From assembly GCA_000432855.1 (NCBI GenBank), contig HF990868.1:84534-148533 (forward strand): a stretch of 64,000 nucleotides of DNA. The letters are read 5' to 3'. Positions 5,320 to 27,465 of the stretch are shown here, in pieces. The notes under the pieces are model-generated. The model saw nothing but the letters and a program-made list of their open reading frames with translations, had not been told where the DNA came from and did no database searches. The stretch is from Firmicutes bacterium CAG:822 (lineage in GTDB: Bacteria; Bacillota_I; Bacilli_A; RF39; UBA660). Numbering within the stretch: the stretch's first letter is position 1; every line of letters starts with the position of its first letter. The translations under genes and the position numbers were made by a program.

Positions 5320-5661
5320 TCAATAAGTTTTCGTAAAATACAATTTAATTTTAACTAAATTTGTATTAATATATTTATTTTTAATACCATAGTCAAAGAT
5401 ATTTTTAAGCAAATTCATAATTTTTCTAATATAACTTTGGCTATATAAATGACCGTTATAAGTTCTGTTTGTTAAATACATATAAAAATAATCAATATCA
5501 TTGCTAGTCAAATCTTTAATGCACTTATATCCTAAAATATCTTTAATAAAATTATTATAAATTCTATCATAATTTTCTTTACATCTATGATTGTGTATCA
5601 TTTCCTTATAAACCTGATTTAAAGTCTTATCTCCCCCTGAAACAGCAAATTTTACTATCAT
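5320..5661 (-). pseudogene. tyrosine integrase N-terminal (SAM-like core-binding) domain fragment; catalytic domain absent
   Basis: 113-aa ORF with the typical integrase N-terminal pattern (..LNQVYKEMIHNHRCKENYDRIYNNFIKDILGYKCIKDLTSNDIDYFYMYL..YSQSYIRKIMNLLKNIFDYG). It ends 40 bp before the next gene with no room for a catalytic domain. Confidence 0.5.
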
Positions 5662-9166: not shown

Positions 9167-9493
9167 TTAATAATACCAATTTTTAAACAAATTGGTGTTT
9201 TTCTCTCTTTCTTTTCTTTTTTTCCTATTTTCATCTCTCAATTTTTCGACATACTTGATATGATTTTTCTTTTTTAATTCAAAACATATAGGATCAAATA
9301 AATTAATTAAATCAAATAGATCATCATATTTTTGATCTAAATAATTTAAATCATTATCAATTTTATCAATAAATTCATTAGTAATATTATCATCATTTAA
9401 TATTTCATTAATTCTTTTGATTAAATCTTGAATTAAAGTAAAATCATCATCATATTGAGTATCGTTTTCTAGACTTTTCAAAATGTCTAGCAT
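9167..9493 (-). CDS. small acidic protein with basic KR-rich tail (paralog 1)
   Basis: 108 aa; ~85% identical to 10878..11186, and the upstream promoter region is duplicated with it. Confidence 0.55.
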   Translation of the reverse strand: MLDILKSLENDTQYDDDFTLIQDLIKRINEILNDDNITNEFIDKIDNDLNYLDQKYDDLFDLINLFDPICFELKKKNHIKYVEKLRDENRKKRKEREKNTNLFKNWYY

Positions 9494-9636
9494 TTTGTTT
9501 AAACTTTCTTCTATAATGTTTATCTCCTCCTTCCTCCTTATAAATTTATAAACATATTAACACTTCTTGTTATAAAGCTCAATGTTACATTATGATAGAA
9601 AAAAATTTTAAAAAAGTGATATAAATGTGGTATTGT

Positions 9637-9693
9637 AAAATAAAAACCCTTATAAAATAAGGACTAAACCACTAAATTGGTGGAGAATAGGAG
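9637..9693 (-). repeat. partial copy of the tRNA-Ala 3' end (16 nt) plus its terminator hairpin; direct repeat of 12031..12087
   Basis: 54 of 57 nt identical to 12031-12087, including the cccttat/ataaggg hairpin and ttggtggagaataggag (tRNA 3' end incl. CCA). Confidence 0.8.
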
Positions 9694-9826
9694 TTTTCTT
9701 TATAAGATTTAATAAAAATTAAAAAGTTTGTTTTTCCTTTATTTTTAAGCATTTTCGTTTACTTTTTTTTAAAAGATTTAATGTGAATTTTTTTAAAATT
9801 AAGGAAAAAGTGATAAAAAAGTGATA

Positions 9827-10390
9827 TTATGCTAGAGCTGGTTTATTATGTAAAGCACCAATTTTTTTTACAAAACCAGTTTCTTGCTCTTTTTCTTTTT
9901 CGCCAAATTGTTCGTTTAAAGCTAAAACACTACTTTTATATCTATTGTATGCAAAATCATAGTCGCCATTTTCGATAGCTTTAACACAAGCTTCTACAAT
10001 ATGGCTATATATATAATTATATATTTGTTCATTGTCATCTAATGCATCGATATTTTTGACTATTATAGGTGCAACATTATAATATAGTTCAATGTCCTCT
10101 TTTGAAACAAAATTATCTCTAAACCATCTTAAAACAGTTAATTCATAGCAGTTATCATCAAATTCATCCTGAAAATGTTTCATACAAGCAGATGTTAAAT
10201 AACATTGACCACTGGTTGATTCTTTTTTGCCATCAACTTTAGTAACAATTTCAACTTTTTTACCCTCACTAACTTTTATGTGTGCAGTATCATGTGGAAC
10301 AGCACGGCTACTAGGACTATATACATCAATTTTTGCTCCTTTTCCATTACTATATGGTGTTACTTTAATTTCTTTATCATTATCTGACAT
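9827..10390 (-). CDS. hypothetical protein with Cys-rich CYxTSxC..ELTVLRWFRDNF motif
   Basis: 187-aa ORF; shares an LR(R/W)FRDN-containing Cys motif with the C-terminus of 29410..30519. Confidence 0.5.
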   Translation of the reverse strand: MSDNDKEIKVTPYSNGKGAKIDVYSPSSRAVPHDTAHIKVSEGKKVEIVTKVDGKKESTSGQCYLTSACMKHFQDEFDDNCYELTVLRWFRDNFVSKEDIELYYNVAPIIVKNIDALDDNEQIYNYIYSHIVEACVKAIENGDYDFAYNRYKSSVLALNEQFGEKEKEQETGFVKKIGALHNKPALA

Positions 10391-10823
10391 TTTTCTCTTC
10401 TCCTCTCATATTAATTAATTTTTTTCTTAACTGCATTATTTCAGACAACCATATAACGGCTTCATCAGAAAGCTCATCTTCATTGCCTGTATCAACCTCA
10501 AAAATATACTTTTCCTTTAGCTTATCTAATTTATTATAGATATCTAATAATTCGTTAGGCATAATAAAATCTAAATTTCTAATAGTTTGAAATTTCGTCC
10601 CCCACTCAACTATCTTATCTAGTATTTGTTTAATTTCTTTATGGTCGTTTTGATAAGTTTTTAAGTTTGCCATCATAGACAATGGGCCGATTAATCTTGT
10701 GAATGCAACATATAATTTACTTTCTACTTCATATAAGTTTCTCTGCAAATTATTATCATTATTTTCCAATGTTAACCTCCAATCCTTTAAAGAAAAAAAT
10801 AAAATAATAATTCTTATATTCAA
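10380..10823 (-). CDS. hypothetical protein (true start probably internal, MMANLK..)
   Basis: The low-complexity N-terminal 50 aa look non-coding; the downstream part is coding-like. Confidence 0.35.
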   Translation of the reverse strand: MNIRIIILFFSLKDWRLTLENNDNNLQRNLYEVESKLYVAFTRLIGPLSMMANLKTYQNDHKEIKQILDKIVEWGTKFQTIRNLDFIMPNELLDIYNKLDKLKEKYIFEVDTGNEDELSDEAVIWLSEIMQLRKKLINMRGEEKNVR

Positions 10824-10877
10824 TTATAAATAATATTATTACTTTTTATTATAGGCAGCAATATTTTTATTCTTTCT

Positions 10878-11186
10878 TCAGTTATTTTTAACTTTATCTC
10901 TTTCTTTTCTTTTGTTCCTATTTTCCTCTCTCAATTTTTCGACATACTTAATATGATTTTTCTTTTTTAATTCAAAACATATAGGATCAAATAAATTAAT
11001 TAAATCAAATAAATCATCATATTTTTGATCTAAATAATTTAAATCATTATCCATTTTATCAAGAAAGTCATTAGTAATATTGTCATCACTTAATATACTA
11101 TTAATTCGCTTGATTAATTCTTGAATTAAAGTAAAATCATTATCATATTGATTGTCGCTTTCTAGACTTTTTAAAATGTCTAGCAT
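10878..11186 (-). CDS. small acidic protein with basic tail (paralog 2)
   Basis: 102 aa, paralog of 9167..9493. Confidence 0.55.
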   Translation of the reverse strand: MLDILKSLESDNQYDNDFTLIQELIKRINSILSDDNITNDFLDKMDNDLNYLDQKYDDLFDLINLFDPICFELKKKNHIKYVEKLREENRNKRKERDKVKNN

Positions 11187-11370
11187 TTTGTTTAAACTTT
11201 CTTCTATAATGTCTATCTCCCCCTTATAAATTTATAAACATATTAACACTTTTCTTATAATTTATCAATACTTTATAAAATAAAACGACCATGTAACGTA
11301 TCCGAATGTCATTTTTAGGGAATATTAATTGTTATAATGATGAAAACTATAAATGACTGGCGGTGAATAT

Positions 11371-11589
11371 ATGAAATTTCGGCTAAATGATTATGAAACA
11401 AAAGATGTAATGCGAATTTTAAGGGAATGGACTGAATTAGATCGAAAAGAATTTGGAAAATCAATTAGCCGAAGTGCCAAAAGTATAAAAAGTTATGAAA
11501 ATGGCGAACGAAATTACACCGTTCAGTTACTAAAAGATATTATTAAAAAGTATAATATCACAGTAGTTTTTGAAAAGAATAAAAAATAA
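11371..11589 (+). CDS. small HTH (XRE-like) DNA-binding protein
   Basis: RBS GGCGGTGA 6 nt before ATG 11371. Helix-turn-helix-like segment LREWTELDRKEFGKSISRSAKSIKSYENGER. Confidence 0.45.
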   Translation: MKFRLNDYETKDVMRILREWTELDRKEFGKSISRSAKSIKSYENGERNYTVQLLKDIIKKYNITVVFEKNKK

Positions 11590-12030
11590 AAGAGTGTCTG
11601 CCAACACTCAAAAGTTATGGGACTGCAATACTGCTTACTACTAATTTATTTGTCCTGTAATTTTTTTTTGGAAAAATAGTCCACAACAGATAACTTCATA
11701 ATAACCCACATTATAACTTTGGTTATATCTTGTTCGCCAATTGTACTACTTATATTAAATTGAATAATATCTTTTATTTTTAATGGTGATTGTATAGTTC
11801 TATTGTTTGTTCCTAATACTTTATTAATTAAGTCGTTGGCTATATGGTCGCTTCATTTTCTAAATCGTAATATTGCATACTTTTTTCGCCTTTACAAAAA
11901 TATTCATAGCTAAAAAATTCTTGGGTGCTATTAATATTTTCTTCATCTAAATCAAGTATATCTTTAATATTTGATTTTTTAATTTCAATAAGATAATTAT
12001 TAATTAATTTTTCTTATAGTATCATTAACA

Positions 12031-12057
12031 AAAATAAAAACCCTTATAAAATAAGGG
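12031..12057 (-). terminator. rho-independent terminator of tRNA-Ala
   Basis: On the minus strand, hairpin ccctta-ttt-taaggg followed by a U-rich tract (rc of aaaataaaaa) immediately 3' of the tRNA. Confidence 0.65.
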
Positions 12058-12071
12058 CTAAACTACTAAAT

Positions 12072-12148
12072 TGGTGGAGAATAGGAGACTCGAACTCCTG
12101 ACCCCCTGCGTGCAAAGCAGGTGCTCTAGCCAACTGAGCTAATTCCCC
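12072..12148 (-). tRNA. tRNA-Ala (anticodon UGC)
   Basis: The reverse complement reads GGGGAAUUAGCUCAGUUGG...CCUGCUUUGCACGCAGG...GGUCAGGAGUUCGAGUCUCCUAUUCUCCACCA. It has a G3:U70 pair, anticodon loop UUUGCAC, a T-loop GTTCGAG and an encoded CCA. Confidence 0.9.
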
Positions 12149-17474: not shown

Positions 17475-18761
17475 ATGGAAAAAATAGACATTATCAAAAA
17501 TATCACCGAACGAACAGGTGGAGATATTTATTTAGGAGTAGTAGGAGCCGTAAGAACTGGTAAATCAACCTTTATTAAAAGGTTTATCGAAAATCTCGTT
17601 GTTCCTAATATTGAAGATGAATATGAAAGAAAAAGAACCTTAGATGAAATTCCCCAATCAGCGCAAGGTAAAACTATCATGACTACTGAGCCCAAATTTG
17701 TTCCAAGCAATGCCGCTAAAATAAAAATTGATGATTTTACCGCTGATGTAAGATTAGTTGATTGTGTTGGATACATTATCGAAGGGGCCAAAGGTTATGA
17801 AGATGAAAATGGTCCTAGAATGGTTCACACCCCATGGTATGAAGAGTCAATACCATTTGTCGAAGCAGCTGAAATAGGCACTGAAAAAGTTATTAAAGAT
17901 CATTCGAGTATTGGGGTTTTGGTCACGACTGATGGCTCTATTGGTGAATTTGAAAGAAGTGACTATGTCGAAGCCGAACAAAGAATAGCTAAAGAACTAA
18001 AAGAAATAGGTAAACCATTTATTGTCATTGTCAATTCAACACATCCAATGTTGCCAGAAACTGAAAATTTAGCTGAAAAATTAAAAGAAGAATATGGTGC
18101 TCCTGTTATACCAATGAATATTGACAACATGAGTGAACGAGATGCTTATAATATTTTAAGAGAAGCACTATATGAATTTCCAGTCGTATGTATCGATGTT
18201 GAAATGGCCGATTGGGTCGCATGTTTAGAGCCAAATAACTGGTTAAAAAAATCATATATTGATGCCATTAGAAATAGTATTCATGAAATAGATAAACTTA
18301 GAGATATTGAACAAATAACCGGCAAATTAGAGGAATGCGAATATATTGAAAAGGCCTATCTATCAGAAGTGGATACCGCAACCGGTAATGTTAGGGTAAC
18401 CTTAAAAACACCAGCCAATCTTTACAACGAAGTATTAAAAGATATAATTGGTGTAGACATTACTAGTCGTTCCCAATTACTTAGTCTATTTCAAGATTTA
18501 GGCGAAGCCAAAAGAGAATACGACCAAGTAAAAGACGCTTTAAAGATGGTTAAGCAAACTGGTTATGGTGTTGCTTCACCAACCTTAAATGATATGACAC
18601 TAGACACTCCAGAAATAATCAAACAAGGAAGTCGTTATGGTATTAAATTGAAAGCCGTTGCTCCTTCAATTCACATAAGGAATATAATTCTGATGTTACT
18701 GTATTTGAAAGATGTCTTAATGCAAAAAGTAAGAAAAAATATGATTTCATTTACAATATAG
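17475..18761 (+). CDS. spoIVA: stage IV sporulation protein A, 5' segment (residues 1-400, then 28 element-encoded codons to a stop)
   Basis: MEKIDIIKNITERTGGDIYLGVVGAVRTGKSTFIKRF (Walker A), ..LKAVAPSIH collinear with SpoIVA. Homology ends at codon 400 (18674) and the tail IRNIILMLLY.. is unrelated. Confidence 0.85.
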   Translation: MEKIDIIKNITERTGGDIYLGVVGAVRTGKSTFIKRFIENLVVPNIEDEYERKRTLDEIPQSAQGKTIMTTEPKFVPSNAAKIKIDDFTADVRLVDCVGYIIEGAKGYEDENGPRMVHTPWYEESIPFVEAAEIGTEKVIKDHSSIGVLVTTDGSIGEFERSDYVEAEQRIAKELKEIGKPFIVIVNSTHPMLPETENLAEKLKEEYGAPVIPMNIDNMSERDAYNILREALYEFPVVCIDVEMADWVACLEPNNWLKKSYIDAIRNSIHEIDKLRDIEQITGKLEECEYIEKAYLSEVDTATGNVRVTLKTPANLYNEVLKDIIGVDITSRSQLLSLFQDLGEAKREYDQVKDALKMVKQTGYGVASPTLNDMTLDTPEIIKQGSRYGIKLKAVAPSIHIRNIILMLLYLKDVLMQKVRKNMISFTI

Positions 18762-18827
18762 AGAGTTATATAAGTATATAGAATATGTGCTGAAAAGCAT
18801 ATTTTTTATTTAATGGAAGTGAGAAAA

Positions 18828-19694
18828 ATGTCTAAAAAGAAAATGGGTATAGGAACAATAGATATTAATAAAAAATTTAAAGATCAAGAAGAAGCTAGTA
18901 GATATGCTAAAAGATTAAGAGAATATATTCGTTATATCTGTAAAAAGTATAATTATCAAGCAAGTGTTATGACAGTTATTAGTAATACAAAAAGTGATGT
19001 TACTTCATTAAGATATGTTCACAATGGGAAAAGAGGTAGACCTCGGAAACAATTAGTAGTTATGAATACTTATATGGCGAATGTTTGGTATAAAGGAAAT
19101 TTTAATACAGATTGGCATATTCATATTTTAATAGTAAGTAAACCTAGTTATGCACTTAGAAATCATATAAAAAAGTATGTTGATAAAAATTGGATTAATA
19201 TAGCTAATATTCGCGAAAAGAAAGAATTTGATATTAGTATGTTAAATAAAAAGAAAGTCTATAAAAAGACTTGTAATATTAAAATAGCTGATTATTTTAT
19301 TAATCAAAGTGCGGAAATAAGGTTTATGTCTTGTAATTATAGTGATGAAGATGATTTCAAATATAGTCTTAAAGATTATTATAAAGAATATATGAAGTTT
19401 CATTATAATTACATTAAACTTCATAGAAAAAATAAATCTTTGGGAATAACTATGAGCGAAGAAGAATTTATAAAAAGATATGCTAAGATAGAAAGTAAAT
19501 TTAAAATGATTGAAGATTATTTTTATAATATAACAAAAGAAGATGAAGAAAAAGCGAGAAAAGATTTTTTAAAGGAAATTAAAATATCAAAAATTATGGA
19601 AAATTATAATAAAATGCAGAATGTTAAATGTTTTAGAGCAGCTGATGGTAGTTTATTTATAATAAGAAGGAATGAAGAAGAAAGTATATTTTAA
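18828..19694 (+). CDS. hypothetical protein with possible HUH motif (WHIHILIV)
   Basis: RBS GGAAGTGAG before ATG 18828; an HxH-hydrophobic motif and downstream Tyr/Lys motifs suggest, weakly, a Rep/relaxase-like HUH protein. Confidence 0.4.
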   Translation: MSKKKMGIGTIDINKKFKDQEEASRYAKRLREYIRYICKKYNYQASVMTVISNTKSDVTSLRYVHNGKRGRPRKQLVVMNTYMANVWYKGNFNTDWHIHILIVSKPSYALRNHIKKYVDKNWINIANIREKKEFDISMLNKKKVYKKTCNIKIADYFINQSAEIRFMSCNYSDEDDFKYSLKDYYKEYMKFHYNYIKLHRKNKSLGITMSEEEFIKRYAKIESKFKMIEDYFYNITKEDEEKARKDFLKEIKISKIMENYNKMQNVKCFRAADGSLFIIRRNEEESIF

Positions 19695-19761
19695 CTGTCA
19701 TATAATAGATATGTATATAATCAGTATATAAATAATACAGAGATAAAACGAAAACAAATAT

Positions 19762-19790
19762 AAAAATCTCATGTTTAAATGAGATAAAAT
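19762..19790. terminator. bidirectional hairpin terminator (ATCTCAT-gtttaa-ATGAGAT) between convergent genes
   Basis: Perfect 7-bp stem flanked by A/T runs on both sides. Confidence 0.5.
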
Positions 19791-19883
19791 AGTATAAATT
19801 ATTTAATATTTGTTCTATATATTTATTTTGATTATGTTGAAAATAAAAGCTTTATTTAATAAAATTTAAGAAATGAGTATAGA

Positions 19884-20219
19884 TTATTTATCATTAAGTC
19901 CATCAATATAACTATTTATTTTAGCTTTATCAATAGTTGAAAGATTTCTATATTTATCTAGTAATTGTAATTCATCTTGTGGTAAAGAACTTGAAAAAGC
20001 GTTATTAATAGAATAATCTATATCAGTTCTCTCTAATAGATAATCAGTAGTAGTATTTAAGTAATCAGCAATTTTAATTAATGTATCAGCACTAGGTTTA
20101 GCTTTATTATTAAGATAAGCACTAATAGTTTCTTGAGTAACTCCAATTTGAACTGATAAATTTATTTGAGTAATGTTTTTCTTAGTCATAAGAGCTTTTA
20201 AATTTTTCATACATAACAC
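19884..20219 (-). CDS. XRE-family HTH transcriptional regulator
   Basis: ITQINLSVQIGVTQETISAYLNNKAKPSADTLIKIADYL is a typical cI/Cro-type HTH; divergent from the next operon. Confidence 0.75.
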   Translation of the reverse strand: MLCMKNLKALMTKKNITQINLSVQIGVTQETISAYLNNKAKPSADTLIKIADYLNTTTDYLLERTDIDYSINNAFSSSLPQDELQLLDKYRNLSTIDKAKINSYIDGLNDK

Positions 20220-20346
20220 CTCTATATCATTATAAATTTTATAAATTGTATTTTTAGATATTGTATTTATAATATATATAGATATAACTTGTATTTTGTA
20301 GAAATATAGTATATAATAAATTTATATTAGAAAGAGGTTGTTTGTA

Positions 20347-20940
20347 GTGGGAGAAAAAAAATTATGCAAATATTGTAAATCAGAAATTGATAAAAAAGCT
20401 AAAATATGTCCTTTTTGTAAACGAGGTCAAGGCAATGTTGTTCTTAGATTACTATTTGTATTTATTATTATAACTTTTGTTATCACAGTTCTTGCAAGTT
20501 TAGGAGATAGTTCAAATAGTACATCTAATGAAAAGAAAACAGTAAATATGGGAGAAAAAGTTACAGTTAATGATGTTGATTATATAGTTAATGAAAAGAA
20601 AATACAAAAAGAAATAAGTGTAGCTAGTGGTTATTTTAAATATACAGCTGATGGTAATTATTTGTTAATAAATATTACAATTACTAATAATAGTAAAAGT
20701 TCAATAAATATTGACTCAACAGATTTTAGATTAAAAGATGAAAACGGAGCTACATATTCAGCAAGTATATTAACAAGTGTTGATAATATGGATATGCTTA
20801 ATTTTGAAACAATAAATCCAAATGCAACTGAAAGTGGTTATATAGCTTATGATATAGCAAATACTGATTTACATTATACATTAACAATTGATGGCGATGA
20901 GTTTTTTGATTCAGCTGGAATAGAAGTTTCTATTCAGTAA
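20347..20940 (+). CDS. zinc-ribbon / single-TM protein with DUF4352-like extracellular domain
   Basis: GTG 20347 sits 9 nt after AGAGG. CKYC..CPFC zinc ribbon, then a TM helix, then a beta-rich domain (..YIAYDI..) resembling DUF4352. Confidence 0.5.
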   Translation: MGEKKLCKYCKSEIDKKAKICPFCKRGQGNVVLRLLFVFIIITFVITVLASLGDSSNSTSNEKKTVNMGEKVTVNDVDYIVNEKKIQKEISVASGYFKYTADGNYLLINITITNNSKSSINIDSTDFRLKDENGATYSASILTSVDNMDMLNFETINPNATESGYIAYDIANTDLHYTLTIDGDEFFDSAGIEVSIQ

Positions 20941-21183
20941 GGTTTAAGTCTAATAGTAATATTAGGCTTTTATTTTTGATTTAATAATGTATTTTTAAGC
21001 AATAAGAGATTATCATATATTTTATTGAATTATTATATTTGACTTGTTATAAAGCGATTATGTTAAGAAATATAATATAATTTGAACAAATAGATTAAAA
21101 AGTCGGGACAAAGAATAGTTGAAGATATATAATATTTAAAAAATCATTGTTTTTTAGTGTATAATAGGTTTTGGTGATGTTAT

Positions 21184-23169
21184 ATGGAACAAAAGTACAT
21201 GGATGAAGATGAAGTAATAAGTCTTATAGACAATTATGTAAAAAACGTTAAAATAGATTATGCAATTCTTTTAGATGGTGCTTGGGGAAGCGGAAAAACT
21301 AAATTTATACAAGAAAAAGTAATAAAAAAGCTTAATGATGATTATAAAAAAGAAAAGTCAAAAACAAAAGATGATAAAGATGAAAACATTAAAGCAAAAA
21401 GACCTATATATATATCTTTATATGGTATAAACTCTATAGATGATATTAAGTCACAATTATTACAATCAATTATAAGAAGTGAAAAAATAAAAAAATATAT
21501 ACCAATAATTAACATTGGTGCTACTATAGTTGATGATATAGTAAAATCATGTTCAAATGTTTCTGACATAAGTAAAAAAATAGAAGATTTAGTTACATTT
21601 TTTTATAAATTAGATAATACAGTTATATTCTTTGATGATTTAGAAAGGTGTAATCTTAATATAAATTTAGTATTAGGATATATAAATCAATTAGTTGAGC
21701 ATAATCATTTAAAAGTTGTTTTAATTGCAGATGAAAACAAGATTGGAAAACTGAATTATGAAGATAATAAAGAATTAAAATATTTAACTGTTTTAAATGA
21801 ACACATTGATTTTCAGCAAACAGAAAAAAAAGATATAATGGGTAATCATCAACAAGGAAATACTACATTTACTATAGAAGATATAGAAAATCGTTCAAAG
21901 ATGTTATTTAGAGAAAATATATTTTATAATGAGATAAAAGAAAAATTAATTGGTCAAACAATATATTTTAAGCCAAATATAAACAATATATATGATATTA
22001 TGGCAAATGAAATAATTTCAGATGCAAAAGTTAAAGATATAGTTAATGAAAAGAAAGAACTTTTAATTAGTATGCTATCAAAAAAAGAACATTTGAATTT
22101 GAGAACTTTACAATTTATTTTTCAAACATTTGAAACATTAGTTAAAATTTCAATGGAGGAAGTAGATTTACGAGATTTTAAAGATCAATATTTAACAAAT
22201 TTATTTGAATATTGTATATTAAAATCAATACAGATTAAAAATGGGCAAACATCATATAATTGGAAAGAAAATCAAGAATTTGGAACAATATATTTAGGCG
22301 ATGAAAAAAATGAATATAATTATAATAATTATGTAAATGGATTCAAATTTGTTGATGATTATTTAATGTATTCTTATATAGATAAAGCAGCAATTAAAAC
22401 AACGCTTGAAAATTATATTTATGTTAAAACATTAGAAATTGAAAACCCTAATGATCCATTATATAAGCTAAAAAAATACTGGTTAATTCCAGAACAAGAG
22501 TTAGAAAATATAGTTGATGAAATTATAGATAATATTAGTAAAAATAAATATGTTCTAAATTTATATTCTAAAATTGTATTTTATTTTGCTTGTATTTTTG
22601 ATATGGGAATATGTGAAGATAAAATCAATAATGCTATAAAATTATTAGAAAAGAACATAGAAGAAGAGTGTGTTCAGGGTACATTTGAAGAAGAAAGATT
22701 ACATACAAATTCAAAAAGTGTTTCTCAGAAATATAAAGAATTTATGAAAAAAATAAGAACATTAGTAAATAAGAAAGAAACAAAAACTAAACATGATGAA
22801 ATAATAAAAATTTTAGAAAGCAATAATTGGGGAAGTGAGTTAAAAGAATATTGTAAAACAAATGTTGGACAATTTCTTGAAGACAAAAAATACGCATATT
22901 TGTTAAATATTGAATTAATTATTAATAATATTAAAAATAAAAATATAGAACAAATATATGAATTCTTATATTCGTTACAACAAATATATGGTTTTTCTAG
23001 TGTAAAGGATTATTTTATAGAAGACAAAAATATTTTAATTAATTTAAAACAAGAGTTATCTAATATAGATAATATTGACAAAGTAAAAAGATATGTAATT
23101 AATGATATTATTTCTTTATTAGATGATGTCATTAATATTTTAAATTCTAAAAACGAAAAAGCAAATTAA
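21184..23169 (+). CDS. KAP-family P-loop NTPase
   Basis: AILLDGAWGSGKT is the diagnostic KAP Walker A (G-x-WG-x-GKT); 661 aa, long helical C-terminal region. Confidence 0.7.
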   Translation: MEQKYMDEDEVISLIDNYVKNVKIDYAILLDGAWGSGKTKFIQEKVIKKLNDDYKKEKSKTKDDKDENIKAKRPIYISLYGINSIDDIKSQLLQSIIRSEKIKKYIPIINIGATIVDDIVKSCSNVSDISKKIEDLVTFFYKLDNTVIFFDDLERCNLNINLVLGYINQLVEHNHLKVVLIADENKIGKLNYEDNKELKYLTVLNEHIDFQQTEKKDIMGNHQQGNTTFTIEDIENRSKMLFRENIFYNEIKEKLIGQTIYFKPNINNIYDIMANEIISDAKVKDIVNEKKELLISMLSKKEHLNLRTLQFIFQTFETLVKISMEEVDLRDFKDQYLTNLFEYCILKSIQIKNGQTSYNWKENQEFGTIYLGDEKNEYNYNNYVNGFKFVDDYLMYSYIDKAAIKTTLENYIYVKTLEIENPNDPLYKLKKYWLIPEQELENIVDEIIDNISKNKYVLNLYSKIVFYFACIFDMGICEDKINNAIKLLEKNIEEECVQGTFEEERLHTNSKSVSQKYKEFMKKIRTLVNKKETKTKHDEIIKILESNNWGSELKEYCKTNVGQFLEDKKYAYLLNIELIINNIKNKNIEQIYEFLYSLQQIYGFSSVKDYFIEDKNILINLKQELSNIDNIDKVKRYVINDIISLLDDVINILNSKNEKAN

Positions 23170-23364
23170 TTATATTTAGCGTTTAAAAAAGTACACATTT
23201 TCAAAGATTTAAAATAGTAGTTATTTTAAGTCTTTTTTTGTTTGTAAAAGTATGTTTTATAATTTTTAAATATTTAAAAAGTTTTTGGACTTTTTCAAAG
23301 TATCGGGAGTGACAATATTAAAATTTGTTTATAAAATTAAAGTAAAGTGGAAAGGAGTTTTAAA

Positions 23365-23595
23365 GTGAACAAATCAATATTAATTAAAATAGTAAAATGG
23401 ATTTGTGATGGTTATGTTGATGCTTTAATCACAGGAATAGAAGAAAATGAAAATTATTTTCCTTATACTATCGCAGTTATTCATTTTATAGATGAACTTC
23501 AAAGAAAAAACATTAAAATTGATTATAAAGAAATATTTAATGACTCTATAATTGATAATGTTTTAAAAGAAGCAAATGATTATTTAATGAGGTGA
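23365..23595 (+). CDS. small hypothetical protein
   Basis: AAGGAG RBS 8 nt before GTG 23365; its stop is 4 nt before the invertase gene. Confidence 0.4.
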   Translation: MNKSILIKIVKWICDGYVDALITGIEENENYFPYTIAVIHFIDELQRKNIKIDYKEIFNDSIIDNVLKEANDYLMR

Positions 23596-23599
23596 TATT

Positions 23600-24196
23600 T
23601 TGAAAAATAAAGTATTTGGTTATGCTAGAGTTAGCAGTAAAGAACAAAACGAAGAAAGACAATTATCAGCATTTCAAAAATTTGGTATTGATGAAAGAGA
23701 TATTTATGTTGATAAACAAAGCGGTAAAGATTTTAATAGAAAAGAATATCTTACACTTAAAAATATATTAAGAGAAAATGATTTATTAGTTATTAAAAGC
23801 ATTGATAGATTAGGAAGAAATTACGATATGATAGTTAATGAGTGGAAAGATATTACTAAGAATATTAAAGCAGATATTGTTGTTATTGATATGCCTTTAT
23901 TAGATACTAGAAAAAATAAAGATTTATTAGGAACATTTATTAGCGATATTGTATTACAAATATTATCGTATGTCGCAGAACAAGAAAGAACATTTATTAA
24001 GCAAAGACAAAAAGAAGGTATTTTAGTAGCTAAGAACAATGGAGTTAAATTTGGTAGACCAAAAATAGAAAAACCACAAAATTTTGATATTGTGGTTAAT
24101 AAATGGAAAAATAAAGAAATCAAAAGTAAAGATGCTATGAAGCTATTAGGACTTAAAGCAAATACATTTTATAATATGGTTAAAGATATTAGTTAA
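23600..24196 (+). CDS. small serine recombinase (resolvase/DNA-invertase type)
   Basis: VFGYARVSSKEQNEERQ (catalytic Ser), a resolvase N-terminal domain and a C-terminal HTH; 198 aa. Confidence 0.8.
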   Translation: MKNKVFGYARVSSKEQNEERQLSAFQKFGIDERDIYVDKQSGKDFNRKEYLTLKNILRENDLLVIKSIDRLGRNYDMIVNEWKDITKNIKADIVVIDMPLLDTRKNKDLLGTFISDIVLQILSYVAEQERTFIKQRQKEGILVAKNNGVKFGRPKIEKPQNFDIVVNKWKNKEIKSKDAMKLLGLKANTFYNMVKDIS

Positions 24197-25079
24197 TCGG
24201 ATAGTTATTTTCATAATTATTAATAAAGTCTTTTAATATACTTATATCATTAGTCTTTAGATATTGTTTCATAGCTTCTTTATATCGTTTCTTATAATTA
24301 TCAATATATTCTAAAGAAACATATTTGTTATTATTAAGACGATGTAAAAAATTAGTATGTTTTTTATTCAACTGTAAATATTGATAAGTCTTTTTTAAAA
24401 TCATTGACTTTTTGGCACAAGTAATATCTTTATCATTAAATTTAGTAATTCGTTTACAATATTTAGAATCAGTTTCAGTGGTTAAATAATATCTATCACA
24501 TATATCACATTTTTTAAGACAGTATTTTCGTTTAGAAGTAAATACACAATGTAAAAAACTAATTAGCATATCTGATATTTCATATTTACTTTTATTAGTA
24601 AATATAGTTTTTTCAGAAATTAGATTAAAATTACTATCTGATAATTGTTCTTCTAATAGTGATTTTCTTTCACTAATAGGAAATAACATTTTAGGGTTTT
24701 TAGTATTTTTTATAATAACATTATTATCATAATCAGTCTTATTTATTGTTGTATTTGTGTTTCTTCCATTATTTTGAACTGAAAAATCATAACTAGTAAG
24801 TTTGTCAAAATTAGTATATAAAAATCTTTCAGAAATAGGAGAAATTTGAGTTTTAGATGATACTAAAAAAGTAAACCAAGTTGAATTATCTATATAATCA
24901 TAATTAGTACTTTCAAATAGTCTTTCTAAAAACATTTTAGAATATTCATCTTTCATAATGCAAAAATCAAAAATTTCGTGAAAATCTAGTTTTATAAGTT
25001 TATTATCTGATTTAATTGCGATTTCTTTTGTATTTAGATTTTCATAAAATGTCATTATTTTATAATGCTCATTGCTCAT
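24189..25079 (-). CDS. hypothetical protein with C-terminal Cys cluster (CLKKCDICDRYY...C..C)
   Basis: 296-aa ORF convergent with and 8 nt overlapping the invertase gene; no recognised domain. Confidence 0.45.
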   Translation of the reverse strand: MSNEHYKIMTFYENLNTKEIAIKSDNKLIKLDFHEIFDFCIMKDEYSKMFLERLFESTNYDYIDNSTWFTFLVSSKTQISPISERFLYTNFDKLTSYDFSVQNNGRNTNTTINKTDYDNNVIIKNTKNPKMLFPISERKSLLEEQLSDSNFNLISEKTIFTNKSKYEISDMLISFLHCVFTSKRKYCLKKCDICDRYYLTTETDSKYCKRITKFNDKDITCAKKSMILKKTYQYLQLNKKHTNFLHRLNNNKYVSLEYIDNYKKRYKEAMKQYLKTNDISILKDFINNYENNYPIN

Positions 25080-25273
25080 ATAATATCATCTCATTTCTTT
25101 ATTATATATATAGAAAATGTTTTTGCAAAAACTTCTTCAATATAAAGATTACTATATATTATATTTGTTATATAATCAAATTGTCAATTAATTAAATGAA
25201 AATTATTGTCAATTGCTTAAGATAATATATAATACATAATTTTCATAAAATGGACTAGAAAGGAAGATTATAT

Positions 25274-25552
25274 ATGACATTTATGAGTGAATATGATGAC
25301 AATAACAATTTAATTAAAGAGTCTTTGATAGATAAATATGGTAATGAAGAAGTATCATATTTAAACGAAGATTTAGATAAAGAGTTAAATGGTATACAGT
25401 TGTTTAAAGATTTAGGCACATTTTATAAATTACAATTAACTATCAATAAACAAATGTATGAAAGCGGTGATATATCTAAAGAACTTTATAATAAAGTTGA
25501 AGATATAATACTAGATAGAATAAAACCATTTCAAAAATATATTAATAATTAA
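25274..25552 (+). CDS. small hypothetical protein upstream of large serine recombinase
   Basis: 92 aa, acidic; AGGAGG-containing junction to the recombinase gene 13 nt downstream. Confidence 0.45.
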   Translation: MTFMSEYDDNNNLIKESLIDKYGNEEVSYLNEDLDKELNGIQLFKDLGTFYKLQLTINKQMYESGDISKELYNKVEDIILDRIKPFQKYINN

Positions 25553-25565
25553 AGGAGGTGTCATA

Positions 25566-27197
25566 ATGGAACTATATCGTATAAGAGAAGAATTAAAAAC
25601 AAAGAGTATAACAGATATTCCTTTAAGAGTAACCTTTTATGCTAGAGTATCTACTGATAAATATGAACAACTAAATTCATTAGAAAATCAAGTTTCTTAT
25701 TTTAAAGATTTAATAAAGCAAAATAAGAACTGGACTTATGTTGATGGATATGTAGATGAAGGTATTAGTGGTACATCAACAAACAAAAGAGAAAGTTTCT
25801 TAAAAATGATAGAAGATGGTAAAGAAAAAAAATTTGATTTAATCTTAACAAAAGAAGTTTCAAGATTTGCTAGAGATACATTAGATAGTATTGCAAATAC
25901 TAGATTATTGTTAAAATATGATGTTGGAGTACAATTCATAAATGACGGAATTAATACATTAATGCCTGACTCAGAACTAAGATTAACTATTATGTCTTCA
26001 CTAGCACAAGATGAAGTCAGAAAATTATCAGAGAGAGTTAAATTTGGTTATCAAAGGTCAATAAAAAGTGGCAGAGTATTAGGAAATGATGATATTTGGG
26101 GTTATGATAAAAAAGATGGAAAACTTACTATTAATGAAGAAGAAGCAAAAATGATTAGAAGAATATTTGAACTATATACAACAGGAAAATATGGTTTGAA
26201 TACAGTATCAAAAATTATCTATAAAGAGGGATTTAAAAACAAAAATGGTAATAAATTATCAATGACAACAATTAGTTATATCATTAGAAATCCAAAATAT
26301 AAAGGTTATTACTGTGGAAATAAGTCAACAATAGTTGATTATAAACTTAAAAAGAAAATTAAGAAAGATCAAGAAGATTGGGTAATGTATGAAGACCATG
26401 AAACAGTACCTCCAATCATAAGTGAAGAACAATGGGAATTAGCACAGACTATTTATAATAAAAGAAGTGCAAAATGTAGTGATGTAGATAAAAGAATATA
26501 TCAAAATAGATATACTTTTAGTGGAAAAATCAAATGTAATTGTCATGATAAAAGTTTTCATAGAAAAGTATATAGATATAAAACAAAAGATGACGCAGTT
26601 GTTTGGTTATGTCCATATAATAATGGAACAAAAGTAGAAAAATGTGATACTCCTGTACTTTATGAAACTGAATTAATGCAAATACTTAGACAACAAATAA
26701 AAGATTTCATTAATCGTAAAGAAAGTATTATTTATTCATTAACTCAGTTATATAAAGAGAATATTAACTTAAGAGATTATGATAAAGAAATCAATAAGAA
26801 ATTAAGTGATATAGAAGTAATTAAAAGACAAAAAGATAAGTTGTTATCACATAATATGAATGATATTATTTCTGATAAAGAGTTTATGATTAGAAATAAT
26901 GAATGTAATGATAAAATTAAAATATTAGAAAATGAAATTGAAAACATTAGAACAGAAAAAAGAAAATCAGATAATATGGAAGAAGAAGTCTTAAAATTAG
27001 AGCAATTAATAGAAGATAAGATAAATTTTCCATCAGATGATATGATAATTGATTTATTAGATAAAATTGTAGTTTATAGCAGTGATGAAACTCATAATGT
27101 AAAACTAAGAATATATCTAAAAATCGGCGAAGAAATTATCGCTGATTATAAAAATCATAAATCACATCAGTTTAATGTTGTCAAGGCATATGATTAG
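25566..27197 (+). CDS. large serine recombinase (resolvase domain + recombinase domain + zinc ribbon + coiled coil); the 3' end crosses the right junction into spoIVA
   Basis: YARVSTDKYEQ catalytic Ser; FARDTLDSIANTRLL; zinc ribbon CNCH...C..C; 543 aa. The last codons and the TAG stop (27195-97) lie in host spoIVA DNA beyond the AT crossover. Confidence 0.9.
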   Translation: MELYRIREELKTKSITDIPLRVTFYARVSTDKYEQLNSLENQVSYFKDLIKQNKNWTYVDGYVDEGISGTSTNKRESFLKMIEDGKEKKFDLILTKEVSRFARDTLDSIANTRLLLKYDVGVQFINDGINTLMPDSELRLTIMSSLAQDEVRKLSERVKFGYQRSIKSGRVLGNDDIWGYDKKDGKLTINEEEAKMIRRIFELYTTGKYGLNTVSKIIYKEGFKNKNGNKLSMTTISYIIRNPKYKGYYCGNKSTIVDYKLKKKIKKDQEDWVMYEDHETVPPIISEEQWELAQTIYNKRSAKCSDVDKRIYQNRYTFSGKIKCNCHDKSFHRKVYRYKTKDDAVVWLCPYNNGTKVEKCDTPVLYETELMQILRQQIKDFINRKESIIYSLTQLYKENINLRDYDKEINKKLSDIEVIKRQKDKLLSHNMNDIISDKEFMIRNNECNDKIKILENEIENIRTEKRKSDNMEEEVLKLEQLIEDKINFPSDDMIIDLLDKIVVYSSDETHNVKLRIYLKIGEEIIADYKNHKSHQFNVVKAYD

Positions 27198-27465
27198 AGT
27201 TGATGTTGAAAGCACCTTTGAACCAATTATAGGTTCGGAAATTCAAAGTAAAGAACTTATTAATTATTTAATGAAGGACAAAGAATCTGGAAGTCAAAAT
27301 ATTTGGAAAAGTGAAATCTTTGGCCGTAGCTTAGACGTTATAGTTCAAGAAGGTATTCAAGCAAAACTATCACTAATGCCAGAAAGTGTTCGCTTTAAAT
27401 TAAAACAAACACTTTCAAAACTAGTAAATAAAGGTTCTGGGAACTTATTCGCCATTGTCATTTAA
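27190..27465 (+). CDS. spoIVA: stage IV sporulation protein A, 3' segment (residues 401-491)
   Basis: MIRVDVESTFEPIIGSEIQSKELINYLMKD..FGRSLDVIVQEGIQAKLSLMPESVRFKLKQTL..GSGNLFAIVI matches the conserved SpoIVA C-terminus. It is in frame with the 5' segment once 18677-27189 is removed. Confidence 0.85.
   Translation: MIRVDVESTFEPIIGSEIQSKELINYLMKDKESGSQNIWKSEIFGRSLDVIVQEGIQAKLSLMPESVRFKLKQTLSKLVNKGSGNLFAIVI

What the first reader, a model, noticed from the sequence alone, without database searches (positions are those of the whole stretch)
9637..12148. tRNA-Ala(UGC) with a 57-bp partial duplicate (3' end + terminator) 2.3 kb away: att-like direct repeats bracketing a small cargo
tRNA-Ala lies at complement(12072..12148) and its terminator at 12031-12057. 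The 57 bp comprising the last 16 nt of the tRNA plus the terminator hairpin recur at 9637-9693 (3 mismatches). Direct repeats of a tRNA 3' end are the hallmark of site-specific integration into tRNA genes. The bracketed 2.3 kb holds a duplicated small gene, two unknown ORFs, a small HTH gene and a stretch of frameshifted ORF remnants (11600-12030). No intact integrase is present, so this looks like a decayed integrated element or a recombination hotspot.
Basis: seen in the sequence. Interest (0 to 1): 0.6.

Follow-up and report, generated by a model that had tools for sequence, protein, structure and literature searches.

The report
Integrase-less mobile-element relic at tRNA-Ala

Summary
tRNA-Ala(UGC) lies at 12072-12148 (-). 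Its last 16 nt plus the 41-nt terminator recur at 9637-9693, with 2 mismatches rather than 3. There are only two copies in the window and none is expected by chance.

Close relatives from gut metagenomes (uncultured Bacilli) carry, at the same tRNA, a complete ~11-kb integrative mobilizable element (IME). It encodes a tyrosine integrase next to the tRNA, a MobV relaxase, an AAA_25 helicase-like protein, regulators, the same small HTH gene (99% identical) and the same distal cargo. The window keeps only the distal 2.3 kb: HTH, A2, ORF129, ORF187 and a 133-nt element arm.

The "frameshifted remnants" are the 3' two-thirds of an IME gene, cut by a ~6-kb deletion that ends 4 nt from the terminator. 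The same element (96% nucleotide identity) sits between equivalent repeats in another species whose flanks are only 66-74% identical. A sister species has the tRNA with a different terminator and no repeat. Other genomes carry arrays of up to three such integrase-less cassettes.

This is a CIME-like relic of tandem accretion and decay. The cargo function is unknown. Interest is modest.

The parts
12072..12148 (-). Intact tRNA-Ala(UGC) gene with encoded CCA. This is the integration target (attB side). A promoter-like site lies at 12198-12169.
   Evidence: ARAGORN; Rfam RF00005, 68 bits; promoter scan.
12031..12087 (.). Proximal repeat: the last 16 nt of the tRNA (T-stem 3' strand, acceptor 3' strand, discriminator, CCA) plus a 41-nt terminator of the type that intact IMEs carry next to their integrase. 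It is an attL-like junction whose P' arm has been deleted.
   Evidence: Terminator hairpin 12039-12059. Comparison with intact junctions L112/L108/L019.
11649..12026 (-). Pseudogene: the last 122 codons of a 153/174/201-aa IME gene of unknown function, with one frameshift near 11850-11864. The 5' end was removed by the deletion that also took the integrase, relaxase and helicase-like genes.
   Evidence: Six-frame translation. tblastn with L097_201, L112_174 and L115_153 gives two frames at 76-98% identity. Nucleotide homology to L113/L115 ends at 12026. Alignment to L097.
11371..11589 (+). Small XRE-type HTH regulator (72 aa; 78 aa from the ATG at 11353). It is a backbone gene of the IME family.
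   Evidence: Pfam HTH_31/HTH_3. 99% identical to the HTH of the full IMEs L112-L114. 51% identical to the HTH of the int-bearing element in L035. 65% identical to the HTH at the end of the Int-MobV-AAA_25 IMEs L103-L107.
10878..11186 (-). A2: a 102-aa protein with an acidic N-terminus and a basic tail, function unknown. It is the first gene of the distal cargo module.
   Evidence: no family. Orthologues at the same position in L097, L098 and L112-L115.
10380..10769 (-). ORF129: a small partner gene that overlaps the start of ORF187, function unknown. Together with the N-terminus of ORF187 it replaces a 246-bp segment of the L097 variant (a cassette swap).
   Evidence: A distant homologue (26% identity) sits before the 198-aa gene in L115.
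9827..10390 (-). ORF187: a member of a large uncharacterised family (beta-rich N-terminal domain and helical C-terminal domain; invariant H33, H37, C63, C69, C81). In the junctions where such a gene is present (window, L097, L098, L112, L115, L119) it is the last gene before the distal att.
   Evidence: 871 homologues at E<=1e-5, none with a Pfam domain. Alignment. Sub-threshold match to NCBIfam CFI_box_CTERM. 51% identical homologues in ~150-kb IMG/VR contigs. AF2 model with pLDDT 67.5 and no fold match.
9694..9826 (-). Element end (P arm), 133 nt. It is conserved at every distal junction examined and carries two tandem TATCAYTTTT repeats (9805-9815, 9816-9826), which are candidate arm-type integrase sites.
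   Evidence: Alignments of 8 junctions from 5 genomes. Motif enrichment: 3 of 5 window matches lie within 215 bp of the distal repeat.
9637..9693 (.). Distal repeat: an orphan copy of the tRNA 3' end (16 nt) plus terminator. It is an attR-like or hybrid junction (P arm - core - downstream).
9610..9636 (-). 27-nt motif ACAATACCACATTTATATCACTTTTTT just beyond the distal repeat. It is homologous to the P' arm that separates terminator and integrase in intact IMEs, and also to the flank that follows the native-type terminator in L115 and, partially, in L018.
9167..9493 (-). A1: the chromosomal-side homologue of A2 (86% aa; 376 bp at 92% nt over 9200-9575 vs 10893-11260). It lies outside the bracket. 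It is either native flank or the stump of an older element.
   Evidence: An A-like gene sits at the same place in L018, L097, L113 and L115.

Best explanation
The region is the stump of an integrative mobilizable element (IME) of gut Bacilli. The IME uses a tyrosine integrase to insert into the 3' end of tRNA-Ala(UGC).

How the intact element is built. It is ~11 kb in L112. Its attP carries a copy of the last 16 nt of the tRNA and a replacement terminator, so integration regenerates a complete, terminated tRNA next to the integrase gene. Integration leaves a displaced tRNA 3' fragment at the far end, behind a conserved 133-nt element arm.

What happened in the window's lineage. A deletion of ~6 kb or more then removed the P' arm, integrase, MobV relaxase, AAA_25 helicase-like gene, Xis-like gene and most regulators. 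It stopped inside a 153-201-aa gene. What remains is the HTH regulator, the distal cargo (A2, ORF129, ORF187), the P arm and both core repeats.

Consequences. The relic cannot move by itself. Because the P' arm is gone, it is probably also a poor substrate for excision in trans. The regenerated tRNA end remains a usable target for new IMEs. That would explain why related genomes show a full IME beside relics, or arrays of two or three relics (tandem accretion followed by decay).

Status of each step. Shown: the repeats, the homology to intact IMEs, the deletion junction, the cross-species occurrence, and a repeat-free form of the tRNA locus. Inferred: integrase-mediated origin, crossover within the 16 nt, the TATCAYT repeats as arm sites, and present immobility.
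For: - The repeat is exact in position and is not chance.
- L112 holds both ends of a full IME on one contig: tRNA-Ala; a core of 16 nt, terminator and motif (~85 nt); then Int (366 aa), a 78-aa gene, MobV (474 aa), AAA_25 (314 aa), a 76-aa gene, HTH167, 149 aa, cargo, HTH94, 174 aa, HTH72, A (102 aa) and 208 aa; then the P arm and the repeat. Integrase domains are confirmed on the 371-aa integrase that occupies the same position next to tRNA-Ala in L108 and directly for L112.
- The window HTH is 99% identical to the HTH of L112-L114.
- Window 11300-12026 matches L113 at 95.9% nucleotide identity, and the homology stops 4 nt from the repeat.
- L097 has the same chromosomal context at 93% identity. 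It carries the undeleted 201-aa gene followed by HTH94, HTH167, AAA_25 and MobV.
- In L098-L101 (a different species) A2 and HTH are 96% identical in nucleotides while the flanks are 66-74% identical. The element lies between two copies of the tRNA 3' end plus terminator, and the P arm is identical.
- L018 (sister species, EngB 96%) has the tRNA with a different terminator, no repeat, and one A gene. The same native-type terminator is the distal-most repeat in L115.
- L035 has a related integrase (40% identity) at the same tRNA with a 16-nt direct repeat and a homologous HTH.
- The literature describes exactly this path of integration, decay to a CIME and accretion (PMC5704250; PMC5357655). 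The tDNA-fragment principle is set out in PMC4383910.
Against: - No integrase, relaxase or oriT is present in the window itself, so integrase-mediated origin rests on comparison.
- No excised circle or precisely emptied site of this particular relic was found.
- The terminator parts of the two copies are more alike within a genome (window 2/41 differences, L098 0/37) than between genomes that carry a near-identical element. A single crossover within the 16-nt core does not predict this without gene conversion or an accretion history.
- The window's distal repeat has an element-type terminator, not the native type. At least one further recombination event must therefore be assumed.
Confidence: 0.85

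Rival explanations
1. The relic, and the similar two-gene units in related genomes, are still mobile. On this view they are cis- or trans-mobilizable cassettes (CIMEs used like integron cassettes) that a co-resident IME integrase excises and reinserts at tRNA-Ala. The arrays would then reflect cassette traffic rather than decay.
For: In L115 and L112 each unit is flanked by the core repeat, with the P arm and its two TATCAYT repeats on its distal side. The two tRNA-proximal units of L115 and the second unit of L112 also begin with the P'-type motif, which has two more such repeats. Units with unrelated cargo (L112: 189, 130 and 130 aa) have the same arm architecture. Many contigs carrying the 187-aa family are 1-3 kb long, as expected for repeated or variable units. 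CIME mobilisation by accretion is documented (PMC5704250).
Against: In the window the proximal junction lacks the P' motif, because the deletion ends 4 nt after the terminator. The window unit still carries backbone debris (the HTH gene and a pseudogene), which points to decay. Every assembly of this lineage that spans the region (six metagenome contigs and L111) shows the same structure. No circle junction or emptied site was seen.
Confidence: 0.1
2. The repeats arose by an ordinary segmental or tandem duplication of the tRNA-distal region (replication slippage or unequal crossing-over), with later indels. No site-specific integration was involved.
For: Two separate duplicated blocks exist: the 57-bp repeat and the 376-bp A1/A2 block. 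They are in the same order and orientation.
Against: - The two blocks have different spacings, 2394 vs 1693 bp.
- The repeat starts exactly at the T-loop / T-stem 3' strand boundary, as in the intact integrase-bearing elements.
- The same P arm-core junction occurs in another species with unrelated flanks.
- The bracket content is homologous to an IME backbone.
Confidence: 0.03
3. The bracket is a remnant of a prophage or phage satellite (PICI-like) rather than of a conjugatively mobilizable element.
For: ORF187 has 51% identical homologues in ~150-kb IMG/VR contigs. Neighbouring chromosomal genes (ASCH, DUF2441) hit PHROG families. L035 carries a different small int-xis-HTH-HTH_36 element at the same tRNA.
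Against: The closest intact relatives encode a MobV relaxase and an AAA_25 protein, with no capsid, terminase or packaging genes. There was no DNA match in 50,697 phage records and no core match in IMG/VR.
Confidence: 0.03

Closest known systems
CIMEs (cis-mobilizable elements), e.g. the ICESt1-related CIMEs of Streptococcus thermophilus (Pavlovic et al. 2004 and Bellanger et al. 2011, as cited in PMC5704250)
   Same: It is flanked by att-type direct repeats. [quoted passage not shown] It sits in tandem with related elements at the same target in sister genomes.
   Different: The parent is an IME, not an ICE, and the host is an uncultured gut Bacilli lineage. The tRNA-proximal junction has lost its P' arm, so it may not meet the 'retained functional attL and attR' criterion. 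Cis-mobilisation is untested.
Streptococcal IMEs with a tyrosine integrase targeting the 3' end of tRNA genes and a MobV (PF01076) relaxase (Coluzzi et al. 2017, PMC5357655; e.g. IME_Sag2603_tRNAlys)
   Same: The intact relatives (L112-L114, L108, L097) have the same module set: a tyrosine integrase next to a tRNA 3' end, a MobV relaxase, a size of ~10 kb, and frequent accretion with decayed elements.
   Different: The target is tRNA-Ala(UGC). The element carries an AAA_25/DnaB_C-like protein and a distinctive distal 'partner + 187-aa' cargo. The window copy lacks every defining IME gene.
tDNA genomic islands as defined by Islander (PMC4383910) and Williams 2002 (T-stem-region attachment sites)
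   Same: There is a regenerated tRNA at one end and a displaced 3' tRNA fragment in direct orientation at the other. The identity block begins in the T-stem region.
   Different: An Islander-type call requires an integrase inside the interval, and this interval has none. Arrays of three integrase-less units, as in L115, would be filtered out by that algorithm.
Integron gene-cassette arrays
   Same: Related genomes show short arrays of 1.4-2.5-kb units, each with one to three small genes and bounded by a repeated recombination site.
   Different: There is no IntI-type integrase with an adjacent attI and Pc promoter, and no attC hairpins. The sites are tRNA-derived att junctions with long arms. 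The units are most simply explained as deletion products of a larger element.

Membership tests
tRNA-integrated genomic island (tyrosine-integrase type) | Intact tRNA gene at one boundary | tested here: met
   tRNA-Ala(UGC) 12072-12148, found by ARAGORN and Rfam.
tRNA-integrated genomic island (tyrosine-integrase type) | Direct repeat of the tRNA 3' end at the other boundary, in the correct orientation | tested here: met
   16 nt of the tRNA 3' end plus 41 nt at 9637-9693, in direct orientation, 0 expected by chance.
tRNA-integrated genomic island (tyrosine-integrase type) | Integrase gene inside the island | tested here: not met
   No recombinase domain in any ORF of 9694-12030 and no tblastn match to the L035 integrase. 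An integrase is present at the equivalent position in L112-L114, L108 and L035.
tRNA-integrated genomic island (tyrosine-integrase type) | Island absent from some related genomes, or present in unrelated contexts (evidence of horizontal origin) | tested here: met
   L018 lacks it. L098-L101 carry it at 96% identity with flanks at 66-74%.
IME (integrative mobilizable element) | Own integration/excision module | tested here: not met
   Absent in the window; deleted relative to L113/L112.
IME (integrative mobilizable element) | Relaxase and/or oriT for mobilisation | tested here: not met
   No Mob_Pre or MobV in the window bracket. MobV is present in L097 and L112. An oriT was not searched for.
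CIME (cis-mobilizable element) | Lacks integration and transfer genes but derives from an ICE or IME | tested here: met
   Backbone HTH at 99% identity and a truncated backbone gene.
CIME (cis-mobilizable element) | Retains both attL and attR | tested here: inconclusive
   Both core repeats and the P arm are present, but the P' arm motif is missing at the tRNA-proximal junction. Which sequences the integrase needs is unknown.
CIME (cis-mobilizable element) | Can be excised or transferred together with an accreted functional element | not testable with these tools
   Needs an experiment or read-level junction evidence.
Integron cassette array | IntI integrase with attI and Pc, and cassettes ending in attC | tested here: not met
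   The only related integrases are phage-type with an Arm-DNA-bind_4 domain. The repeats are tRNA-derived, not attC-like.

The most novel reading that the evidence does not exclude
The tRNA-Ala locus of this Bacilli clade may work as a cassette platform. Integrase-less units retain the core repeat, the P arm with its conserved TATCAYT repeats and, in most units, the P'-type motif. They would be shuffled in trans by IME integrases. The translationally coupled 'small partner + 187-aa CFI-box-like protein' pair is kept in most relics examined, and also occurs on ~150-kb phages. It would be retained because it is an addiction, exclusion or defence module of a so-far undescribed type.
Probability: 0.1. 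Interest if true: 0.65.

Novelty: new member of a known kind. Interest (0 to 1): 0.3.

Why it matters
The practical result is an annotation. The interval is a dead IME stump, its 'remnants' are neither integrase nor Abi, and the tRNA is intact.

Beyond that, the work defines an IME family, its tRNA-Ala(UGC) attachment site and its arm architecture in an uncultured, poorly annotated gut Bacilli lineage. It shows that this one site repeatedly collects relics. It also flags an abundant, uncharacterised two-gene module (more than 870 homologues without a Pfam family) that survives most decay events examined and also occurs on large phages. That module is the only part that might repay experimental work. 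The integration biology itself is textbook.

Tried and rejected
**Checks that ruled something out**
- A third, decayed copy of the repeat was sought with up to 3 mismatches and with blastn-short. None was found.
- The 113-aa Phage_int_SAM-like ORF at 5320-5661 was tested as a possible integrase stump of this or an older element. It was rejected: no similarity to the IME integrase, and it is conserved as an intact gene in L018 and L097.
- I first read L017, L019 and L022 as empty sites because the tRNA terminator is followed by the motif seen after the window's distal repeat. I withdrew this. L019 and L022 match the integrase-proximal P' arm of L108/L112, and L017 continues into a TnpB-like ORF.
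- The 17 nt next to the proximal repeat looked like filler when aligned to L097. They are in fact part of the truncated gene in the L113/L115 variant.

**Searches that found nothing useful**
- Phage DNA search and an IMG/VR search for the core: no match. A2 has no IMG/VR relatives.
- The cargo has no significant Pfam, PHROG or PADLOC hit and no PDB sequence hit.
- The AF2 model of ORF187 has pLDDT 67.5. Its Foldseek hits against PDB and BFVD have TM ~0.2 (for example the Hsp70 substrate-binding domain) and are not meaningful.

Full report
**Observation**

ARAGORN finds a single tRNA in the window, tRNA-Ala(UGC) at 12072-12148 on the minus strand, and Rfam agrees. The repeat finder and pattern searches show that 12031-12087 recurs at 9637-9693. 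That segment is the last 16 nt of the tRNA, including the encoded CCA, plus 41 nt that contain a terminator hairpin. There are 2 mismatches, not 3.

The whole unit, its tRNA part and its terminator part each occur exactly twice in 64 kb. None is expected in shuffled sequence.

A second duplication (9200-9575 vs 10893-11260, 92% identity) covers a small gene and its upstream region. It has a different spacing (1693 vs 2394 bp), and one copy (A1) lies outside the bracket.

The window is 100% identical to a human-gut metagenome contig. Five further independent metagenome assemblies (L002-L006), and also L111, show the same structure at 99.5-99.9% identity. It is therefore not an assembly artefact. 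The organism is an uncultured gut Bacilli lineage; the MAGs are labelled 'uncultured Bacilli' or 'Tenericutes'.

**Content of the bracket**

Read in the tRNA's direction, the order is:
- proximal repeat;
- a frameshifted ORF remnant (11649-12026);
- a convergent XRE-type HTH gene (11371-11589);
- three co-directional genes: A2 (102 aa), ORF129 and ORF187;
- 133 nt of non-coding DNA;
- distal repeat.

Only the HTH gene has a family assignment. The cargo hits nothing in Pfam, PHROGs or PADLOC.

**What it derives from**

Homologues of the HTH protein led to contigs that explain the structure.

- *L112-L114* (HTH 99% identical) carry a complete element. On one contig, L112 has tRNA-Ala, then an ~85-nt att block (16 nt, terminator, and the motif ACAATATCACATTTATATCAC). 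Next come a 366-aa tyrosine integrase whose 3' end faces the tRNA, a 78-aa gene, a 474-aa MobV relaxase, a 314-aa AAA_25/DnaB_C-like protein and a 76-aa Xis-like protein. These are followed by HTH regulators, optional cargo, a 174-aa gene, the HTH72 gene, an A gene, a 208-aa homologue of ORF187 and a conserved arm. The att block then repeats 11.2 kb from the tRNA. The integrase domains (Phage_integrase, Arm-DNA-bind_4) were confirmed on the 371-aa integrase at the same position next to tRNA-Ala in L108.
- *L097* has the window's own chromosomal context at 93% identity. After the HTH gene it carries the undeleted 201-aa gene, the regulators, AAA_25 and MobV.
- *L108* completes that type with the integrase abutting tRNA-Ala.

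This is the module set of an integrative mobilizable element (IME) as described for streptococci: a tyrosine integrase at a tRNA 3' end, a MobV relaxase, and a size of about 10 kb (PMC5357655).

**The deletion**

The window's 'remnants' align to residues 80-201 of the L097 201-aa protein, in two reading frames. Nucleotide homology to the intact IME of L113 (95.9%) runs from the HTH gene to window position 12026, which is 4 nt before the proximal repeat.

Relative to L113, the window lacks about 6.3 kb. The missing part comprises the first 48 codons of that gene, the regulators, the Xis-like gene, AAA_25, MobV, the integrase and the P' motif. There is no residual similarity to an integrase anywhere in the bracket. 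The same junction is present in the diverged strain L111, so the deletion is old within this lineage.

**Evidence that the repeats are attachment junctions**

1. The identity block begins exactly at the boundary between the T-loop and the 3' strand of the T-stem in all junctions.
2. Every distal junction has the same ~133-nt element arm in front of the core, including two tandem TATCAYTTTT repeats at a fixed distance. This holds for the window, L097, L098, two junctions in L112 and three in L115. In most of them the downstream side carries an ATATCA-containing motif holding one further TATCAYT repeat. In the window, 3 of the 5 matches to this motif lie within 215 bp of the distal repeat. Because the integrase has an arm-binding domain, these are plausible arm-type sites. 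This is inference.
3. In L098-L101, a different species, the A2-HTH segment is 96% identical to the window, whereas EngB-Der and the other flanks are 66-74% identical. The element lies between two copies of the tRNA-Ala 3' end plus terminator, next to a NUDIX gene instead of A1. An IS1595-family transposase occupies the place of the deleted backbone.
4. The sister species L018 (EngB 96% identical) has the tRNA followed by a different terminator, no second copy and a single A gene. The same native-type terminator follows the tRNA in strain L008 and forms the distal-most repeat in L115.
5. L035 carries a different 4.7-kb element at the same tRNA. It has a 40% identical integrase, a Xis-like gene and a 51% identical HTH, and its direct repeat is just the 16 nt.

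The minimal identity shared by all junctions is 16 nt (L035, L112_DR3, L113, L115_DR4). The crossover therefore most likely lies within the tRNA 3' end. The terminator belongs to the element's P' side, meaning that the IME brings a replacement terminator for the tRNA. This too is inference.

**Hotspot and arrays**

The site accumulates relics.

- L112 has a full IME followed by a second small att-bounded unit (189, 130 and 130 aa).
- L115 has four copies of the tRNA 3' end bounding three integrase-less units: 122+198 aa; A-like 132+200 aa; and a window-type unit at 98% identity.
- L119 has two partner-plus-187-family pairs between the tRNA and a distal repeat, and its integrase is deleted.
- L121 has one such pair and no distal repeat.

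This matches the published three-step path of integration, decay to a CIME, and accretion of a new element at the regenerated target (PMC5704250). It also matches the tDNA-fragment logic used by Islander (PMC4383910).

In most cases the surviving part is the distal module. A 180-210-aa protein of the ORF187 family is the last gene before the arm, preceded by a small, often overlapping partner from the A family or the ORF129 family.

**Cargo**

The ORF187 family has 871 members at E<=1e-5. None has a Pfam domain or a source name, and many lie on 1-3-kb contigs. The family has invariant His33, His37, Cys63, Cys69 and Cys81 and a very conserved motif, CYLT[ST]ACM...FDDNC.EL..LRWFRD.

NCBIfam gives a sub-threshold match to the CFI-box-CTERM domain (24 vs 40 bits). 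Homologues occur in ~150-kb IMG/VR contigs without the partner gene. They also occur as a 124+181-aa pair in an unrelated chromosomal context. The AF2 model (pLDDT 67.5; beta-rich N-terminal half, helical C-terminal half) has no meaningful structural neighbour in PDB or BFVD. The function remains unknown. Any addiction or defence role is speculation.

**Open points**

- The terminator segments of the two copies are nearly identical within a genome (window 2/41 differences, L098 0/37) but differ between genomes that carry almost the same element. A single crossover in the 16-nt core does not predict this without gene conversion, host-adapted attP variants or an accretion history.
- The window's distal repeat carries an element-type terminator, not the native type. 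Yet in L115 the motif and the A1-like gene follow a native-type terminator. Whether A1 and its 27-nt motif are native flank or the stump of an older element is therefore unresolved.
- Independent decay events (window, L115, L098, L119) all removed the integrase side. An IS1595-family element lies immediately after the tRNA terminator in L098-L101, and the L008 contig breaks there at a similar-looking sequence. This offers a mechanistic bias as an alternative to selection for the cargo.

**Verdict**

The feature is a CIME-like, integrase-less relic of a MobV-type IME integrated at the 3' end of tRNA-Ala(UGC). It is a new member of a well-known kind, in an under-studied host. Interest is modest. 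The only potentially novel aspect is the persistently retained, abundant two-gene module and the cassette-like arrays it forms.

Noticed in passing
window 17475-27462: spoIVA is split. Residues 1-401 are encoded at 17475-18677 and residues 398-491 at 27181-27462, separated by an 8.5-kb low-GC insertion (18674-27180) that is absent from other strains (L002, L003, L005-L008, L111). The insertion carries a 293-aa ORF, an XRE HTH gene, DUF4352, a KAP NTPase, a small resolvase, DUF6076 and a 543-aa large serine recombinase that ends at the right junction. This looks like a skin-like sporulation-gene intervening element in spoIVA that is polymorphic in the population.
   Followed up: partly
window 9827-10390 (-); L009 9971-10504; L116 6637-7546: The ORF187 family has 871 homologues and no Pfam family. 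It gives a sub-threshold CFI-box-CTERM match and has invariant His and Cys residues suggestive of metal binding. It occurs in IME relics, in ~150-kb IMG/VR phage-like contigs and as a 124+181-aa pair in an unrelated chromosomal site.
   Followed up: partly
L098 8659-9564 (also L099-L101); ends of L008 and L005: In L098-L101 an IS1595-family transposase sits immediately after the tRNA-Ala terminator. The L008 contig breaks at the same spot at a similar-looking sequence (GGTACAA), and L005 breaks inside A1 at a related-looking sequence. This may explain both the assembly breaks and the repeated deletion of the integrase side.
   Followed up: partly
window 5320-5661 (-): A stand-alone 113-aa ORF resembles a phage-integrase N-terminal SAM-like domain. 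It is conserved intact in L018 and L097 and is unrelated to the IME integrase, so it is not a stump of this element.
   Followed up: yes
L112 4759-7543; L113 811-3744: Full IMEs carry variable inserted cargo. One has a 719-aa protein (weak match to a bacteriocin-associated 7-TM immunity family) plus an ABC-type ATPase. The other has 294-aa and 476-aa proteins plus an ABC-type ATPase.
   Followed up: no
L007 11799-11874: In one strain the sequence diverges inside the 3' end of the HTH gene into unrelated DNA (…CCCCGCAGCAAGCTACGGGG…GTGCGATGTC…). This may be another mobile insertion.
   Followed up: no
L035 1200-6026: A distinct 4.7-kb element lies at the same tRNA-Ala in a related species. It has an integrase (40% identical to the IME integrase), a Xis-like gene, a homologous HTH, a 436-aa membrane protein and an HTH_36 replication-initiator-like protein, bounded by a 16-nt repeat.
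   Followed up: partly
window 10206-10874 vs L097 7258-7503: There is a cassette swap inside the cargo. The window has ORF129 plus a different N-terminal part of ORF187, where L097, L098 and L112 have a 246-bp segment that gives a single 208-210-aa protein. The C-terminal domain and the arm are shared.
   Followed up: partly
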